This document shows, one piece after another, positions 12,314 through 33,482 of a DNA stretch of 55,409 nt (its first letter is position 1; every line of letters begins with the position of its first letter). Under the pieces are notes generated by a model that worked only from the letters and a program-made list of their open reading frames with translations, was not told the DNA's origin and ran no database searches. The DNA lies in IMG/VR virus record IMGVR_UViG_2531839531_000009; one strand, written 5' to 3'. The translations under genes were made by a program, and so were the position numbers. The DNA is from a virus (Duplodnaviria > Heunggongvirae > Uroviricota > Caudoviricetes).

Positions 12314-12435
12314 GCAGGTGAATGCAACGTCAAGCGATGGGCGTTGCGCTCCATATTGTCTTACTTCCTTTTTTGAATTACTGCATAGCACAATTGATTC
12401 GTACGACGCCGACTTTGATGAGTCGGCTTTTTTTT
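12314..12435 (+). ncRNA. fnrS: FnrS small RNA
   Basis: gcaggtgaatgcaacgtcaagcgatgggcgttgcgctccatattgtc... ending in hairpin gacgccgactttgatgagtcggc plus T8 matches my recollection of E. coli FnrS; between zntB and dbpA as in K-12. Confidence 0.7.
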
Positions 12436-16736: not shown

Positions 16737-16937
16737 TCACGAGGACTGAAGTTTCTCGCAATTGAAATTAATCAGTTTTACTTTCTGCTCTCTGGAAACT
16801 CCTGCTTCTTTTTTACCTGAGAGCATTTTTTCGCATTCTGATTTCGTTAGTTTAGATTTTGAATATCTTGTCCAGTTAGTAGGAGTGCCACCTTCCTTTT
16901 CAATAGTGGCGGTAATTTTATACATGAACATCTCCAT
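16737..16937 (-). CDS. ydaC: YdaC-like small protein
   Basis: ORF between xis and ralR; start uncertain (ATGs at 16937, 16931, 16925) because the longest frame overlaps ralR. Confidence 0.45.
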   Translation of the reverse strand: MEMFMYKITATIEKEGGTPTNWTRYSKSKLTKSECEKMLSGKKEAGVSREQKVKLINFNCEKLQSS

Positions 16938-17112
16938 TATTATTTCCAGTGGTTCGTTTATTCCATCTTTCGAGTGCTTCTTTTTCACTTCCACCATAAC
17001 CGGTTCGGGATTCGCATGCGTTACACTTCGCTCGGTAATATCCTGAAATGGCTTTCACCGTTACTGATGGACAACCACAAAATGGACATGGTTTGACTTT
17101 TTCATACCGCAT
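16918..17112 (-). CDS. ralR: restriction alleviation protein RalR (Lar)
   Basis: MRYEKVKPCPFCGCPSVTVKAISGYYRAKCNACESRTGYGGSEKEALERWNKRTTG matches Lar as recalled. Confidence 0.65.
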   Translation of the reverse strand: MRYEKVKPCPFCGCPSVTVKAISGYYRAKCNACESRTGYGGSEKEALERWNKRTTGNNNGDVHV

Positions 17113-22287: not shown

Positions 22288-22695
22288 AATTATCTCCATT
22301 TTTACAAATGAATTTTGTCGATGCGGTGCCTGGTGCCTCCAGGTGACGTTAACCAGTTAACAATTAACGCCGGATAATCCACCCATAACACTGATGCTTT
22401 TAACTGCGCCGCGTGCGCTTAGCCGCATTCACCGCATCACAAAATTCACTTTAAAAAGGGGCGGCAGGGCAGCTACGGAGTAGAACTGATGCCGCCAAAA
22501 ACTAGACACAGCAATGTCGTTATTTACAACCGGAGGCGCACTCCCACCATTTAAATTTAACAGACAAGACCGACTCTTTATGGATACCGGAAATGCGCCT
22601 TCGTATTGTGCCCGGTTTTATTTCACCACCTCCGGGCTTTGGTGGCCTCGGCTATACCCCTACAGCAAGAATATTGAATTAATCCAATAAATGGT

Positions 22696-28638: not shown

Positions 28639-29211
28639 ATGAGAGACATTGATGTAAGAAAGGCTGTGCATGCCAAGATTCTGAGAGATCATCATAAAGA
28701 TCCTGACACCCTAATCATTGATGAGTTTACGATGAATCTAGGGGCTAGCAGAGCTGATATAGCAGTGATCAATGGGCTTATACATGGTTATGAGTTGAAG
28801 AGCAAGAGTGATAACTTGCTCAGATTACCAGCGCAGGTGCAACATTACTCATCAGTGATGGATAAAGTAACGTTGGTTGTCTCTGATTGCCATCTTTATG
28901 ATGCTTTAAGCATAGTTCCATCATGGTGGGGGATAAAGCAAGTTACGCAAGGTGCACGGCAAGGTATCCATTTAAAAACAATTCGAACTAGCAAGTTGAA
29001 TCCACAAGTGGACAAACTTTCCTTAACAATGCTTCTTTGGAAAGATGAATTGCTTTCCCTATTAAGTGATGTAGGGGAGCTACAGAATTTGAAAAATAAA
29101 CCTAAACGCGTCTTATGGTCAAAACTCGCCAATAGTATGGATGTTGGCGAGCTTCGTGAAGCTGTTCGAGTTAAACTTAAAGCCCGTAAAGAGTGGCGAG
29201 TTGCTCAATAA
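28639..29211 (+). CDS. PD-(D/E)xK nuclease-like protein (resembles proteins I recall annotated as sce7726 family)
   Basis: 190 aa; LIIDEF...RADIAVINGLIHGYELKSKSDN fits a PD-(D/E)xK D...D...E-x-K pattern; AT-rich coding sequence; 3' end overlaps the convergent partner by 35 bp. Confidence 0.6.
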   Translation: MRDIDVRKAVHAKILRDHHKDPDTLIIDEFTMNLGASRADIAVINGLIHGYELKSKSDNLLRLPAQVQHYSSVMDKVTLVVSDCHLYDALSIVPSWWGIKQVTQGARQGIHLKTIRTSKLNPQVDKLSLTMLLWKDELLSLLSDVGELQNLKNKPKRVLWSKLANSMDVGELREAVRVKLKARKEWRVAQ

Positions 29212-30274
29212 CCTTAGTTATGTGATGGTTTTGCCCAATCCTACGCCATACCTCTGGGCTACCAAATTTATAGTTACCAGAGGGATTGGCTTTGTAGGCT
29301 TGATACTCGTTTGCATAATATTCTATGTCTCTATCTCCCGCACAGAATGTAGGCCCTGAATATTCTCGATGAGCAAGAATATCCTCACTATGTTTACCAT
29401 ATTGTTCATAACCAAAGCGATTAGCTACTCTTCCTCGAAATACCCAAAAGTCATTATCTCCAGAGTATCTGACGCTGGCAGATACGCTAGGGAATCGCGT
29501 CGAAAGCCTATTAAAGTCGGGGTGCTGTACTCCATAATCACTATAAATCACATTTCTGGCAAGTTCTTTTCTATTCATTAAACTCTGCCATAAAATCCAC
29601 TCGATTCGAGGTTGAGAATATAGACCAACAGAAATATCACTGAGATCTGTAGGAAATGAACCCCCAGAAATAATCACTTTCCTGTATTCATTGAGGTGCG
29701 CCAGATTGTTTATCAATCCCATTGCCAAAGTATATAGTTCGCCGGAATTAAGTTTATCCTCGGTTAACTCATCTCTTAAGTCAATAATTATATCAAAATT
29801 TGATAAAGGAATTCCCAGATGATTAATGTAATGCGTTATTAATTGTGGGTTAACCAGATCTAACGTAGTTAATCTCAAGCATATTTCATTCTGCATTAAT
29901 TCATCAATCGCTCTTTTATAGTTAGATGGGCGAGTTGGTGAACTGACAGGAATAACTCTTATTCCCATATCTCTAACTTGATTAACCGCATTCATTATAG
30001 GGTAATGATCTTCAGGAGAAATAAAATGCTCTTCAATTAATAATCCATCAATATAAACACCTTGCATATCTGAGCAAGATTTTGAGACTTTCTTTCCGAA
30101 CTCTATAAGAGTCTCGTTATAACTCTTTAAGGCAATACCTGAATCAGGGTCAATTGGCACTGGTTCAATTTCGAGTAATGGCAAAATTTTTGATTTCTTT
30201 TCAATGGATAGCTGCGATAAAGCTGATAACTCAGAACGTTTCGCTTTCAGAATAGGAATATATGAAATTGTCAT
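29177..30274 (-). CDS. hypothetical 365-aa protein (resembles proteins I recall annotated as sce7725/beta family)
   Basis: Long AT-rich ORF convergent with the nuclease-like gene; no motif identifiable by eye. Confidence 0.6.
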   Translation of the reverse strand: MTISYIPILKAKRSELSALSQLSIEKKSKILPLLEIEPVPIDPDSGIALKSYNETLIEFGKKVSKSCSDMQGVYIDGLLIEEHFISPEDHYPIMNAVNQVRDMGIRVIPVSSPTRPSNYKRAIDELMQNEICLRLTTLDLVNPQLITHYINHLGIPLSNFDIIIDLRDELTEDKLNSGELYTLAMGLINNLAHLNEYRKVIISGGSFPTDLSDISVGLYSQPRIEWILWQSLMNRKELARNVIYSDYGVQHPDFNRLSTRFPSVSASVRYSGDNDFWVFRGRVANRFGYEQYGKHSEDILAHREYSGPTFCAGDRDIEYYANEYQAYKANPSGNYKFGSPEVWRRIGQNHHITKVIEQLATLYGL

Positions 30275-30830
30275 GTTAATACCTTATACAGAATCAATTA
30301 ACAATTAATGGTTCTTCGGACATTGAAATTTATATCGCAAAAATTGGCAAACTCTCCTCGACTACTCACTTGTGGGTATCCTGGCGTAAAAGGAATGACT
30401 TGGCAATACCCGGTGTGATCATAAGTCATTGAAAATGATCATTTTTATCAGCCTTTCTTCCATGATGAATGCTAATGCCATTTGATTTGTTGAGGTGAAA
30501 ACTATTAAAAATCAAAACGATGTAATTGAAATGAACGTTCGGTAGCATTCACGCTTTAAATGTTTCTTTTGTGCTGATTGGATGAATTTTGGTCACTTAT
30601 GATGAGAGATGTTGCAGGAAAAGAAGTTGGCATTGATCTATTGGATAGTTAGAATTGCTGCGGGTGCTTGAGGCTATCTGCCTCAGGCATGAACACCAAA
30701 AGGCAGATAGAGAAAAGCCCCAGTTAACATTACGCGTCCTGCAAGACGTTTAACATTAATCTGAGGCCATATCTATGCGACACATAGAGATTAGCCTCTT
30801 ACGGACCGAAAGGTCAAGGAGAAGCAGGCT

Positions 30831-30986
30831 ATGAAGCAGCAAAAGGCGATGCTAATCGCCCTGATCGTCATCTGTTTAACCGTCATAGTGACGGCACTGG
30901 TAACGAGGAAAGACCTCTGCGAGGTACGAATCCGAACCGGCCAGACGGAGGTCGCTGTCTTCACAGCTTACGAACCTGAGGAGTAA
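30831..30986 (+). CDS. hokD: Hok/Gef-family type I toxin (HokD/RelF-like, 51 aa)
   Basis: Unlisted short ORF: MKQQKAMLIALIVICLTVIVTALVTRKDLCEVRIRTGQTEVAVFTAYEPEE; preceded by a short overlapping mok-like frame and followed by hairpins. Confidence 0.75.
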   Translation: MKQQKAMLIALIVICLTVIVTALVTRKDLCEVRIRTGQTEVAVFTAYEPEE

Positions 30987-31055
30987 GAGACCAGGCGAGG
31001 GAGAAATCCCTCGCCACCTCTCATGTGTCAGGCATCCTCAACGCACCCGCACTAA

Positions 31056-31077
31056 ACCCGCTTCGGCGGGTTTTTTG
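31056..31077 (+). terminator. rho-independent terminator after hok
   Basis: CCCGC-TTCG-GCGGG hairpin followed by TTTTTTG. Confidence 0.5.
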
Positions 31078-31261
31078 TTGCGTGCTGAATGCGCAGGGTG
31101 AAAAATAACCATATATTTGATTATATACACAACAAAAAATAAAAGTCATTGTACCTGCACATTAAATAATCAAATATACAGCGTGAAATAAATATTTTTC
31201 AGATTAATATTTTTGTCTCTATGTGGATATAACCGTTTGTACTTATAAACTCGGAGGCATC

Positions 31262-31474
31262 GTGGAAAAAATAAAGAAACTATTTAGTTGCAAATACGCA
31301 GTCATACGTCGTGATGACCTGTCAGTTATAGTCGAAATGGATTACTTCCCTGAACCCCCAAAATCAATGATGTATCGTAATGGTCGAAAGGCAATTTTTT
31401 TACCGATGAGGGTAAGTGACATTATGGGAAATGATAAACTGCTGGATGAATTGCGAGTCAGAGCATCCTGTTAG
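31262..31474 (+). CDS. small protein, Rem-like by position
   Basis: GTG start preceded by CGGAGG within ORF 31223..31474; gene order hok, small gene, DUF1367-like, Q resembles K-12 Qin (hokD, rem, ydfU, quuQ) as recalled. Confidence 0.4.
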   Translation: MEKIKKLFSCKYAVIRRDDLSVIVEMDYFPEPPKSMMYRNGRKAIFLPMRVSDIMGNDKLLDELRVRASC

Positions 31475-31545
31475 TATTGGCATTAATTCTGGTATACTAC
31501 ATAACGGGCTGAACACCCATTCTACTGCGCCAGCGGAGAACTACG

Positions 31546-33328: not shown

Positions 33329-33404
<76 letters not shown>

Positions 33405-33407
33405 TAT

Positions 33408-33482
<75 letters not shown>

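What the first reader, a model, noticed from the sequence alone, without database searches (positions are those of the whole stretch)
30700..31077. HokD-like type I toxin locus adjacent to the cargo cassette
A 51-aa Hok-family toxin is encoded with a short overlapping upstream frame (MRHIEISLLRTERSRRSRL) and fold-back hairpins, but without the relBE partners I recall in Qin. Two toxin-type loci side by side suggest a prophage addiction/defence hotspot.
Basis: partly seen in the sequence, partly recalled or inferred. Interest (0 to 1): 0.35.

Follow-up and report, generated by a model that had tools for sequence, protein, structure and literature searches.

The report
Complete hok/mok/sok toxin–antitoxin module in prophage
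This is an ordinary, intact copy of the well-known hok/sok RNA-controlled toxin–antitoxin module, sitting in a Rac-like prophage; thousands of E. coli genomes and many sequenced phages carry the same module, so it is real but not new.

Summary
Window 30831-30986 (+) encodes a 51-aa Hok protein identical to E. coli K-12 HokD. No relB or relE is present anywhere in the window.

The locus is larger than reported. It is a full hok/mok/sok type I toxin–antitoxin module of about 450 bp (30627-31079), with these parts:
- a promoter and the hok mRNA 5' end (tac);
- the matching 3' element (fbi);
- the ucb/mok Shine-Dalgarno switch;
- a 19-codon mok frame whose UGA overlaps the hok AUG;
- a 3' protective hairpin and a terminator;
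- on the minus strand, a Sok-like antisense gene (about 30781 to 30707) with a positionally conserved promoter.

K-12 hokD shares only the part from about 15 nt upstream of the hok AUG onward. The window therefore holds the intact form of what is truncated in Qin.

The same module occurs in 4724 of 5426 complete E. coli genomes, 79 deposited phage genomes and 733 plasmids. Phage Rac-SA53 has the identical gene order with mok and hok annotated.

The "defence hotspot" idea is only partly supported. The slot upstream of hok is variable, and here it holds a defence-candidate gene pair. That neighbour is not a known toxin.

Verdict: already known; low interest.

The parts
30627..30655 (+). hok promoter: -35 TTGGCA (30627-30632), 17-nt spacer, -10 TAGAAT (30650-30655)
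   Evidence: The consensus scan gives 10 of 12 matches. The -10 sits 7 nt before the conserved mRNA 5' end. A -10-like hexamer (TAGAAT, TATAAT, TAAGAT or TACAAT) holds this position in 25 homologs even though the DNA further upstream is unrelated.
30662..31079 (+). full-length hok (mok-hok) mRNA, about 418 nt
   Evidence: The Rfam RF01794 model starts at 30662. The terminator is at 31054-31073. MFE is -176.3 kcal/mol, z = -8.8.
30662..30673 (+). tac element (mRNA 5' end, GGGUGCUUGAGG)
   Evidence: It pairs with 31036-31048 in the MFE. It is invariant or nearly so in 26 homologs. Position 12 changes G to A in Kluyvera, with compensating changes in both of its alternative partners.
30664..30690 (+). 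5' metastable hairpin (tac paired with the sequence immediately downstream)
   Evidence: The local fold is -19.6 kcal/mol. RNAalifold predicts it as the consensus; pair 12-20 is GC:16, GU:8, AU:5.
30715..30721 (+). ucb / anti-SD box (AAGCCCC). It pairs with the mok SD region in the closed form and with tac in the open form.
   Evidence: Closed-form pairs 30717-19 with 30765-67 appear in the MFE. The open-form tac/ucb helix is 99.5% paired in 26 homologs but invariant, so this is not independent proof. It matches the Rfam consensus structure.
30707..30781 (-). predicted Sok antisense RNA, about 75 nt (ends inferred by homology)
   Evidence: The ends are mapped from annotated K-12 sokC (16952-17010) through alignment A4. 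It folds as a 5-nt free 5' end, a short 5-bp helix closing the two ends and a long hairpin, with a U-rich 3' stretch (most of it paired in that closing helix): -28.4 kcal/mol, z = -5.7. The hairpin has 6 pairs with compensatory changes. It carries a 17-18 nt insertion at the hairpin tip relative to hokC-type loci.
30788..30817 (-). sok promoter candidate: -35 TTGACC (30817..30812), 18-nt spacer, -10 TAATCT (30793..30788)
   Evidence: Read from the minus strand. TAATCT lies at -12..-7 of the homology-mapped Sok start. The A at position 2 and the T at position 6 of the -10, and the TTG of the -35, are invariant in 26 homologs from Escherichia to Erwinia and Photorhabdus. The stricter consensus scan did not pick it up.
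30763..30766 (+). mok Shine-Dalgarno (GAGG)
   Evidence: It lies 8 nt before the mok ATG. It is invariant (G102 A103 G104 G105). The GAGGC/GCCUC target hairpin is 100% paired (helix 5).
30775..30834 (+). mok leader frame: 19 codons plus UGA, which overlaps the hok AUG (AUGA)
   Evidence: Translation. The ATG is conserved in homologs. This 19-codon form occurs in 17 of 123 modules; 102 have mok in frame with hok and 3 have it out of frame.
30816..30821 (+). hok Shine-Dalgarno (AAGGAG)
   Evidence: It lies 9 nt before the hok ATG and is conserved.
30831..30986 (+). hok toxin gene, 51 aa, identical to K-12 HokD
30964..30978 (+). small hairpin presenting UUACGAA around the Tyr47 codon (TAC 30969-30971); a TadA-type A-to-I editing site (Tyr to Cys)
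   Evidence: The 3-bp stem is 98.7% paired, with 2 pairs showing compensatory changes. Editing of K-12 hokD mRNA at this Tyr is reported at about 6% (PMC12214031). Editing in this copy is inferred only.
30994..31015 (+). G+C-rich 3' stem-loop (likely 3' end protector of the processed, truncated mRNA)
   Evidence: The 8-bp helix is 97.6% paired, with 4 pairs showing compensatory changes. The role is taken from R1 work summarised in PMC9841398.
31036..31048 (+). fbi element (CCUCAACGCACCC), complementary to tac
   Evidence: 12 bp with one bulged C in the MFE. 97.8% of cells are paired in 26 homologs. One pair shows a G-C to A-U compensatory change.
31054..31079 (+). intrinsic terminator (stem 31054-31073 plus T run)
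   Evidence: It is conserved in most phage copies.

Best explanation
The locus is a complete hok/mok/sok type I toxin-antitoxin module of the HokD lineage. It is carried as a self-contained cassette of about 450 bp in the early-right region of a Rac-like lambdoid prophage.

The mechanism below is inferred from the R1 paradigm and from the elements found here.
1. The promoter at 30627-30655 makes a stable mRNA of about 418 nt.
2. During synthesis the 5' end is held in a local hairpin.
3. In the finished RNA the 5' tac box pairs with the 3' fbi box, and the ucb box covers the mok ribosome-binding site. The RNA is then neither translated nor bound by Sok.
4. Slow 3' trimming back to the 30994-31015 hairpin removes fbi.
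5. tac then pairs with ucb, which exposes the mok SD and start inside a target hairpin.
6. If the short-lived antisense Sok RNA (about 30781 to 30707, minus strand) is present, it pairs there, blocks mok, and the duplex is cleaved.
7. If Sok is lost, ribosomes translate the 19-codon mok frame, terminate at the UGA that overlaps the hok AUG, and start hok. Sok could be lost because the prophage is gone, or because an infecting phage has shut off transcription.
8. The 51-aa Hok peptide then depolarises the inner membrane.

Shown here: every sequence element, their complementarity and their conservation or covariation. Inferred: transcription starts, processing, Sok instability, killing, and the biological role (prophage retention and/or abortive infection).
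For: - Toxin: Pfam HOK_GEF at 1.2e-23, and 100% identity to K-12 HokD.
- Leader: Rfam RF01794 at 108 bits against a gathering score of 59, covering model positions 1-157 from the mRNA 5' end to the hok AUG.
- Promoter: TTGGCA-17-TAGAAT directly upstream, with a positionally conserved -10.
- 5'-3' closure: the tac/fbi pairing is in the MFE. It is 97.8% paired in 26 homologs. The G12 to A change is compensated both in fbi and in the metastable-hairpin partner.
- Antisense gene: the ends map onto annotated sokC. Key promoter positions are invariant. The hairpin covaries. The fold has z = -5.7.
- mok: the SD and ATG are conserved. In R1, mok translation is needed only up to the hok SD, and the part of mok upstream of hok is likewise 19 codons (PMC9841398).
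- 3' hairpin: it covaries.
- Context: the whole unit is a portable block bounded at about 30650-31075. It is found in 4724 of 5426 E. coli genomes, 79 phage records and 733 plasmids. In phage Rac-SA53 the same gene order is annotated with mok and hok.
Against: - There are no expression data. The Sok ends are transferred by homology only.
- The sok -10 (TAATCT, 18-nt spacer) is weak, and the consensus scan missed it.
- The tac/ucb helix is invariant, so it offers no covariation support.
- MFE folding of the 3'-truncated RNA gives the local 5' hairpin rather than tac/ucb.
- The mok frame here is the minority 19-codon form (17 of 123). Its target loop is 3 nt shorter than in hokC and lacks a YUNR motif, so Sok binding kinetics could differ.
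- Intact chromosomal hok/sok loci tested in the past did not give post-segregational killing, as summarised in 10.1101/2025.08.07.668861.
Confidence: 0.85

Rival explanations
1. The locus is a structurally intact but functionally silent passenger. All elements are present, yet, like the chromosomal hok/sok loci tested earlier, it gives neither killing after loss nor phage exclusion. It simply hitch-hikes with the lambdoid cassette.
For: [quoted passage not shown] The sok promoter is weak by consensus. Some copies elsewhere are interrupted by inserted DNA or truncated (L086, L116, L107, K-12), which shows the module can be lost without harm.
Against: The Hok protein is identical or nearly so in 66 or more of about 130 sampled modules. 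RNA helices keep pairing through compensatory changes. Promoter key positions are invariant. This pattern indicates purifying selection on function.
Confidence: 0.2
2. The molecular device is the same, but its main role is abortive infection or exclusion of superinfecting phages, acting with the neighbouring defence-candidate pair. Prophage addiction would be secondary.
For: The adjacent ORFs match PADLOC models: PD-Lambda-2_C at 1.5e-41 and 'cll' at 2.4e-28. The slot upstream of hok is a variable cargo position. hok is enriched in prophages. From my own knowledge, R1 hok/sok is reported to exclude T4.
Against: The same preprint found no enrichment of hok next to defence systems. Other upstream cargo sampled gave no strong PADLOC hits. 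The hok module has its own promoter and terminator and moves independently of the neighbour; only 4 of 83 loci share this upstream DNA.
Confidence: 0.3
3. The locus is a Sok-less hok remnant like K-12 hokD (relF), with the upstream frame a chance ORF.
For: The Hok protein is identical to K-12 HokD, and PGAP names such copies hokD.
Against: K-12 homology stops about 15 nt upstream of the hok AUG, where relE sequence begins. The window keeps the full 170-nt leader, which matches the Rfam model end to end. The mok ATG and SD are conserved across genera.
Confidence: 0.03

Closest known systems
hok/sok (parB) of plasmid R1, the paradigm type I toxin-antitoxin system
   Same: It has the same parts list: Hok/Gef toxin, mok leader frame starting about 56 nt upstream, cis-antisense Sok over the mok start, tac/fbi 5'-3' closure, ucb anti-SD switch, metastable 5' hairpin and 3' protective hairpin (mechanism as reviewed in PMC9841398). 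In R1 the part of mok upstream of hok is also 19 codons.
   Different: In R1 mok is 70 codons and overlaps hok out of frame. Here it stops at a UGA that overlaps the hok AUG. The Sok hairpin is 17-18 nt longer. The host replicon is a prophage rather than a plasmid. I did not align the R1 sequence directly.
E. coli K-12 hokC/mokC/sokC (gef) locus
   Same: The leader, mok start, Sok region and hok are alignable. The annotated sokC ends map to 30781 and 30707. The hokC-type loci L014-L021 align over the whole module at 75-76% identity.
   Different: mokC is in frame with hokC (69 aa). K-12 hokC has IS186 just downstream. The window has an extra hairpin-tip insertion and a 3-nt shorter target loop.
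E. coli K-12 hokD (relF) in cryptic prophage Qin
   Same: The Hok protein is identical and the DNA is about 98% identical from just upstream of the hok SD through the terminator.
   Different: In K-12 everything upstream of about -15 is replaced by relB-relE. That copy has no hok promoter, tac, ucb, mok start or sok. The window has the intact form and no relBE.
mok/hok of Escherichia phage Rac-SA53 (KU052037) and other lambdoid or Stx phages ('hokW/mokW', 'gef phage maintenance protein', 'host killer protein')
   Same: The gene order is the same: cII-like (sce7726), beta, mok/hok, DUF1367 (irsA), ybcO, Q. The hok module is 93-96% identical in 79 phage records.
   Different: Rac-SA53 and most phage copies have the 70-aa in-frame mok. 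The window has the 19-codon variant, shared with 16 other sampled modules.

Membership tests
[quoted passage not shown] | Small Hok/Gef membrane toxin ORF (about 50 aa, Pfam PF01848) | tested here: met
   E 1.2e-23, 82.9 bits against a cut-off of 22. 100% identical to K-12 HokD.
[quoted passage not shown] | Conserved hok mRNA leader (Rfam RF01794, which in practice models the plus-strand leader from +1 to the hok AUG) | tested here: met
   108.3 bits against a gathering score of 59, model positions 1-157 of 157, window 30662-30833 (+).
[quoted passage not shown] | Long-range tac/fbi pairing of the mRNA 5' and 3' ends | tested here: met
   12 bp in the MFE. 97.8% paired in 26 homologs, with one compensatory pair. 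In silico only.
[quoted passage not shown] | ucb anti-SD that can pair either with the mok SD or with tac (conformational switch), plus a metastable 5' hairpin | tested here: inconclusive
   All three pairings are possible and conserved. However, tac/ucb never varies, so there is no covariation. The MFE of the truncated RNA prefers the local hairpin.
[quoted passage not shown] | mok leader frame with its own SD, starting upstream of hok and translated through the hok SD | tested here: met
   SD GAGG at 30763-66 and ATG at 30775. The 19 codons run through the hok SD and end at AUGA. This is shorter than the usual 55-70 codons. Per PMC9841398, translation beyond the hok start is dispensable.
[quoted passage not shown] | cis-encoded antisense Sok RNA with its own promoter and terminator, complementary to the mok translation-initiation region | tested here: met
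   Candidate promoter TTGACC-18-TAATCT. The homology-mapped ends are 30781 and 30707. The hairpin is followed by a U-rich stretch. This is sequence-level only; transcription was not observed.
[quoted passage not shown] | Toxicity of Hok, instability of Sok relative to hok mRNA, and killing on loss of the locus | not testable with these tools
   Requires wet-lab assays.
K-12 Qin-type relB-relE-hokD arrangement | relBE operon immediately upstream, with the hok leader truncated about 15 nt before the AUG | tested here: not met
   No relB or relE in the window. The full leader is present.
PD-Lambda-2 defence system (considered for the neighbouring cassette only) | Three-gene system with A, B and C components | tested here: not met
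   Only the C-like model hits the 365-aa ORF (1.5e-41). The partner ORF hits the PADLOC model 'cll' and NCBIfam sce7726, not PD-Lambda-2 A or B. Only the two adjacent ORFs were scanned.

The most novel reading that the evidence does not exclude
The window carries a minority hok/sok variant that may define its own Sok specificity class. In this variant mok is reduced to a 19-codon upstream ORF ending in AUGA, and the Sok-target loop is 3 nt shorter and lacks a YUNR U-turn motif. More generally, the patch around the mok start and the Sok 5' tail (30765-30788) is the most variable part of otherwise near-identical prophage modules. It might be under diversifying selection so that the several hok/sok modules co-resident in one E. 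coli (median 2, up to 10) do not cross-neutralise. My small test found co-resident modules different in 8 of 9 same-genome pairs. That is about what the type frequencies alone predict, so the idea is neither supported nor excluded.
Probability: 0.15. Interest if true: 0.35.

Novelty: already known. Interest (0 to 1): 0.1.

Why it matters
The finding has little novelty value. Its use is for annotation:
- It shows that the "hokD" which automated pipelines label in most E. coli prophages is not the crippled K-12 relic. It is a full hok/mok/sok module whose mok frame, Sok gene, promoter and RNA switch elements go unannotated.
- It gives exact coordinates for those elements in this window.
- It documents that the mok frame comes in three interchangeable forms. 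This fits the published view that only ribosome transit up to the hok start matters.
- It corrects the impression that a missing relBE is an anomaly.

Tried and rejected
1. A consensus sigma-70 scan for the antisense promoter found nothing on the minus strand between 30760 and 30840 at its default stringency. The candidate was found only by reading the strand and by homology to sokC.
2. RNAalifold on 29 homologs did not recover tac/fbi, because it chose the competing local 5' hairpin. Three IS-interrupted rows added noise. I therefore tested named structures on a cleaned 26-sequence alignment.
3. MFE folding of a 3'-truncated RNA did not yield the expected tac/ucb open form.
4. I assumed the 83-aa ORF at 31223-31474 was Rem of Qin. 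tblastn with K-12 Rem found no match, so I dropped the assumption.
5. I tested whether co-resident modules avoid sharing the same Sok-target type. Eight of 9 same-genome pairs differ, which is indistinguishable from the random expectation of roughly 0.88 from type frequencies. This gave no support, and the test is underpowered.
6. I tested whether the upstream variable slot generally holds defence genes. Six proteins from other upstream clusters gave no convincing PADLOC hit; the best was mad2 at 8e-5.
7. I did not follow up the sub-threshold Rfam hits on the hok 3' UTR: isrK at 31.3 bits against a gathering score of 50, and rsmX at 27.8 against 56. They look like generic hairpin-plus-terminator matches.
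8. I did not use protein homology, structure prediction or fold searches, because the Hok family assignment was already unambiguous.

Full report
**What is at the coordinates**

The plus strand carries an intact 51-codon ORF at 30831-30986.
- It matches Pfam HOK_GEF at E 1.2e-23, 82.9 bits against a cut-off of 22.
- Its product is 100% identical to E. coli K-12 HokD.
Window 30775-30834 translates to MRHIEISLLRTERSRRSRL*.
- The stop of that frame (UGA, 30832-30834) overlaps the hok AUG (30831-30833).
- tblastn with K-12 RelB and RelE finds nothing credible anywhere in the 55-kb window, and there is only one hok copy.

**The unit is larger than reported**

Rfam family RF01794 ("sok") matches 30662-30833 on the plus strand. 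It scores 108.3 bits against a gathering score of 59, over model positions 1-157 of 157.
- The model begins at GGGUGCUUGAGG and ends at the hok AUG.
- In practice it therefore describes the hok mRNA leader, which contains the complement of Sok.
- A sigma-70-like promoter sits immediately upstream: TTGGCA, 17 nt, TAGAAT, at 30627-30655, with 10 of 12 matches.
- An intrinsic terminator lies at 31054-31073.
- blastn against 53 genomic loci shows that the block shared with other copies runs from about 30650 to 31075.

**Relation to K-12 hokD**

In K-12, hokD lies 71 nt downstream of relE in the cryptic prophage Qin.
- In a three-way alignment, K-12 matches the window only from about 15 nt upstream of the hok AUG through the terminator.
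- Upstream of that point K-12 has relE sequence.
- The window therefore holds the intact form of a module that is truncated in K-12.
- This agrees with the literature statement that K-12 hokD was inactivated by a genomic rearrangement (PMC12214031).

Absence of relBE is the normal state, not an oddity.

**RNA architecture**

The 418-nt transcript 30662-31079 folds at -176.3 kcal/mol, z = -8.8, and no shuffle folds as well.

*tac/fbi closure.*
- In the MFE, the 5' end 30662-30673 (tac) pairs with 31036-31048 (fbi) as 12 bp with one bulge.
- I aligned 26 non-redundant homologs from Escherichia, Shigella, Kluyvera, Pseudocitrobacter, Photorhabdus, Erwinia, Kalamiella and IMG/VR phage contigs.
- On this alignment the helix is 97.8% paired.
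- Its twelfth pair changes from G-C to A-U in four Kluyvera-clade sequences (three Kluyvera species and a related Enterobacteriaceae isolate).
- The same tac position also covaries with its partner in the local 5' hairpin (GC:16, GU:8, AU:5).
- This is the coupled covariation expected if the 5' end uses alternative partners.

*Other helices.*
- The hairpin that forms the body of Sok on the other strand has six pairs with compensatory changes.
- The GAGGC/GCCUC stem that encloses the mok start is 100% paired.
- The G+C-rich 3' stem-loop 30994-31015 is 97.6% paired, with four compensatory pairs.

*Caveats.*
- The tested structures were derived from the window sequence itself, which favours them in the slide control.
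- The tac/ucb helix is invariant and therefore uninformative.
- The MFE of a 3'-truncated RNA gives the local hairpin rather than tac/ucb.

**The antisense gene**

- K-12 sokC is annotated at 16952-17010. It overlaps the first 9 nt of mokC.
- Through the alignment of hokC with the window, those ends map to 30781 (5') and 30707 (3') on the minus strand. That gives an RNA of about 75 nt.
- This RNA is 17-18 nt longer than SokC because of an insertion at the hairpin tip.
- Upstream on the minus strand are TTGACC (30817..30812), an 18-nt spacer and TAATCT (30793..30788). The hexamer sits exactly at -12..-7 of the mapped start.
- The A at position 2 and the T at position 6 of the -10, and the TTG of the -35, are invariant in all 26 homologs.
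- The predicted RNA folds at -28.4 kcal/mol, z = -5.7. It has a free 5-nt 5' end, a short 5-bp helix closing the two ends, and a long hairpin, with a U-rich 3' stretch, most of it paired in that closing helix.
- The consensus scan did not report this promoter because it requires at least 4 of 6 matches in each hexamer.

The evidence for Sok is comparative, not experimental.

**The mok frame**

I examined 123 modules collected from genome contigs and from IMG/VR.

| mok form | modules |
|---|---|
| ATG about 56-58 nt upstream, in frame with hok (a 68-70-aa extended Hok, as annotated for mokC and for Rac-SA53 mok) | 102 |
| The window's form: 19 codons ending in AUGA | 17 |
| Out of frame, overlapping hok as in R1 | 3 |
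| No SD-preceded ATG | 1 |

- In R1, mutational scanning showed that mok must be translated up to the hok SD, but not beyond the hok start. The mok segment upstream of hok is also 19 codons there (PMC9841398).
- The window's short mok is thus compatible with normal coupling, most simply by termination-reinitiation at AUGA. That last step is my inference.

**Distribution and prior knowledge**

- The 501-bp region has matches in 4724 of 5426 complete E. coli genomes, and 3828 hold at least 80% of it. The median is 2 copies per genome and the maximum 10. NCBI's pipeline names the gene hokD.
- The module is found in 79 deposited phage genomes. These include Rac, mEp460, Stx2 phages and PPompW phages. 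It is annotated there variously as mok/hok, MokW, HokD toxin, host killer protein or "gef phage maintenance protein".
- It is also found in 733 plasmid records.
- Phage Rac-SA53 (KU052037) has the same gene order as the window: cII-like protein, beta, mok/hok, rem, irsA (DUF1367), ybcO, Q. Its mok and hok are annotated.
- The window itself is a Rac-like prophage next to fnrS, with RalA and DicF.
- A 2026 preprint catalogues about 44,000 Hok homologs and reports enrichment in prophages (10.1101/2025.08.07.668861).

The finding is therefore already known in kind and in place.

**The "hotspot" interpretation**

The adjacent convergent pair is as follows.
- 28639-29211 (+) is an sce7726-family protein: NCBIfam 1.6e-56, PADLOC model 'cll' 2.4e-28.
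- 29177-30274 (-) is a Pfam Beta_protein (2.2e-52) that also matches PADLOC PD-Lambda-2_C at 1.5e-41.

This is a defence candidate, not a known toxin, and it does not meet the three-gene PD-Lambda-2 definition.

Across 83 loci with enough flank, the 1.5 kb upstream of hok falls into 40 sequence clusters. The downstream 1.5 kb falls into 20, and the largest of those holds 43 loci. hok therefore sits at the edge of a variable cargo slot.
- Six proteins from other upstream clusters gave no convincing PADLOC hit.
- The preprint found no enrichment of hok next to defence systems.

**Side observations**

- Within 96 HokD-clade modules, the most variable patch is 30765-30788. This is the mok start and the target of the Sok 5' tail. 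It has about eight main sequence types.
- Co-resident modules differ in 8 of 9 same-genome pairs. That is what type frequencies alone predict.
- The Tyr47 codon (30969-30971) lies in a covarying mini-hairpin with loop UUACGAA. This is the position where K-12 hokD mRNA is reported to be A-to-I edited at about 6%.

**Verdict**

The locus is a real, complete and canonical hok/mok/sok module.
- Novelty: already known.
- Interest: low (0.1).
- The only mildly unusual feature is the minority 19-codon mok form with a shortened target loop.

Noticed in passing
window 12314-12431 (+), 16741-16919 (+), 22459-22510 (-), 33329-33482 (+): Rfam gathering-level hits are FnrS, RalA (antitoxin RNA of the ralR/RalA system), DicF and tRNA-Thr/tRNA-Gly. 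The window is a Rac-like prophage beside fnrS. It carries a second RNA-antitoxin system besides hok/sok.
   Followed up: partly
window 28639-29211 (+) and 29177-30274 (-): This is a convergent, slightly overlapping gene pair. One gene encodes an sce7726-family protein (PADLOC 'cll'). The other encodes a Pfam Beta_protein matching PADLOC PD-Lambda-2_C at 1.5e-41. The same pair precedes hok in phage Rac-SA53 and in E. coli 214-4. Its function is unknown; it is a defence candidate.
   Followed up: partly
window 30765-30788; loci L058-L177: Inside otherwise near-identical HokD-clade modules, the most variable patch is the mok start and Sok 5'-tail target, with about 8 main sequence types. Co-resident modules differ in 8 of 9 same-genome pairs, which is no more than chance predicts.
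   Followed up: partly
window 30964-30978: A mini-hairpin presents UUACGAA (similar to the tRNA-Arg ACG anticodon loop) around the Tyr47 codon TAC 30969-30971. Its stem covaries. It matches the reported TadA A-to-I editing site that recodes Tyr to Cys in hokC, hokD and hokE (PMC12214031).
   Followed up: partly
window 30995-31076 (+): A sub-threshold Rfam match of the hok 3' UTR plus terminator to isrK scores 31.3 bits against a gathering score of 50, E 3e-4. IsrK is a Salmonella prophage sRNA. A weaker match is to rsmX. Both are probably generic hairpin-plus-terminator resemblance.
   Followed up: no
window about 30650 and 31075; 83 loci with flanks: The hok module is a sharply bounded portable block. 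The 1.5 kb upstream falls into 40 clusters and the downstream 1.5 kb into 20, the largest holding 43 loci. This suggests hok marks the right edge of a cargo slot in lambdoid phages.
   Followed up: partly
L028 2271-2695 and 2833-3257; L086, L116, L107: An Enterobacteriaceae gut isolate carries two tandem hok modules about 560 bp apart. Three IMG/VR phage contigs have hok modules disrupted by unrelated sequence: from the hok start onward in L086 and L116, and an IS186-like end in the 3' hairpin of L107.
   Followed up: no
window 31080-31545: An AT-rich spacer carries two minus-strand promoter-like sites (31149..31120 and 31202..31173). An 83-aa ORF at 31223-31474 has no Pfam, NCBIfam or PADLOC hit and no similarity to K-12 Rem.
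   Followed up: no
L017 (Acinetobacter idrijaensis), L022 (Xanthomonas pisi), L055 (Candidatus Scatousia MAG), phage PP818812 (Actinobacillus phage vB_Apl-pPE4): Near-identical E. coli-type hokD sequences appear on very short contigs, or in records attributed to distant hosts. These are likely contamination or mis-attribution rather than true host range.
   Followed up: no
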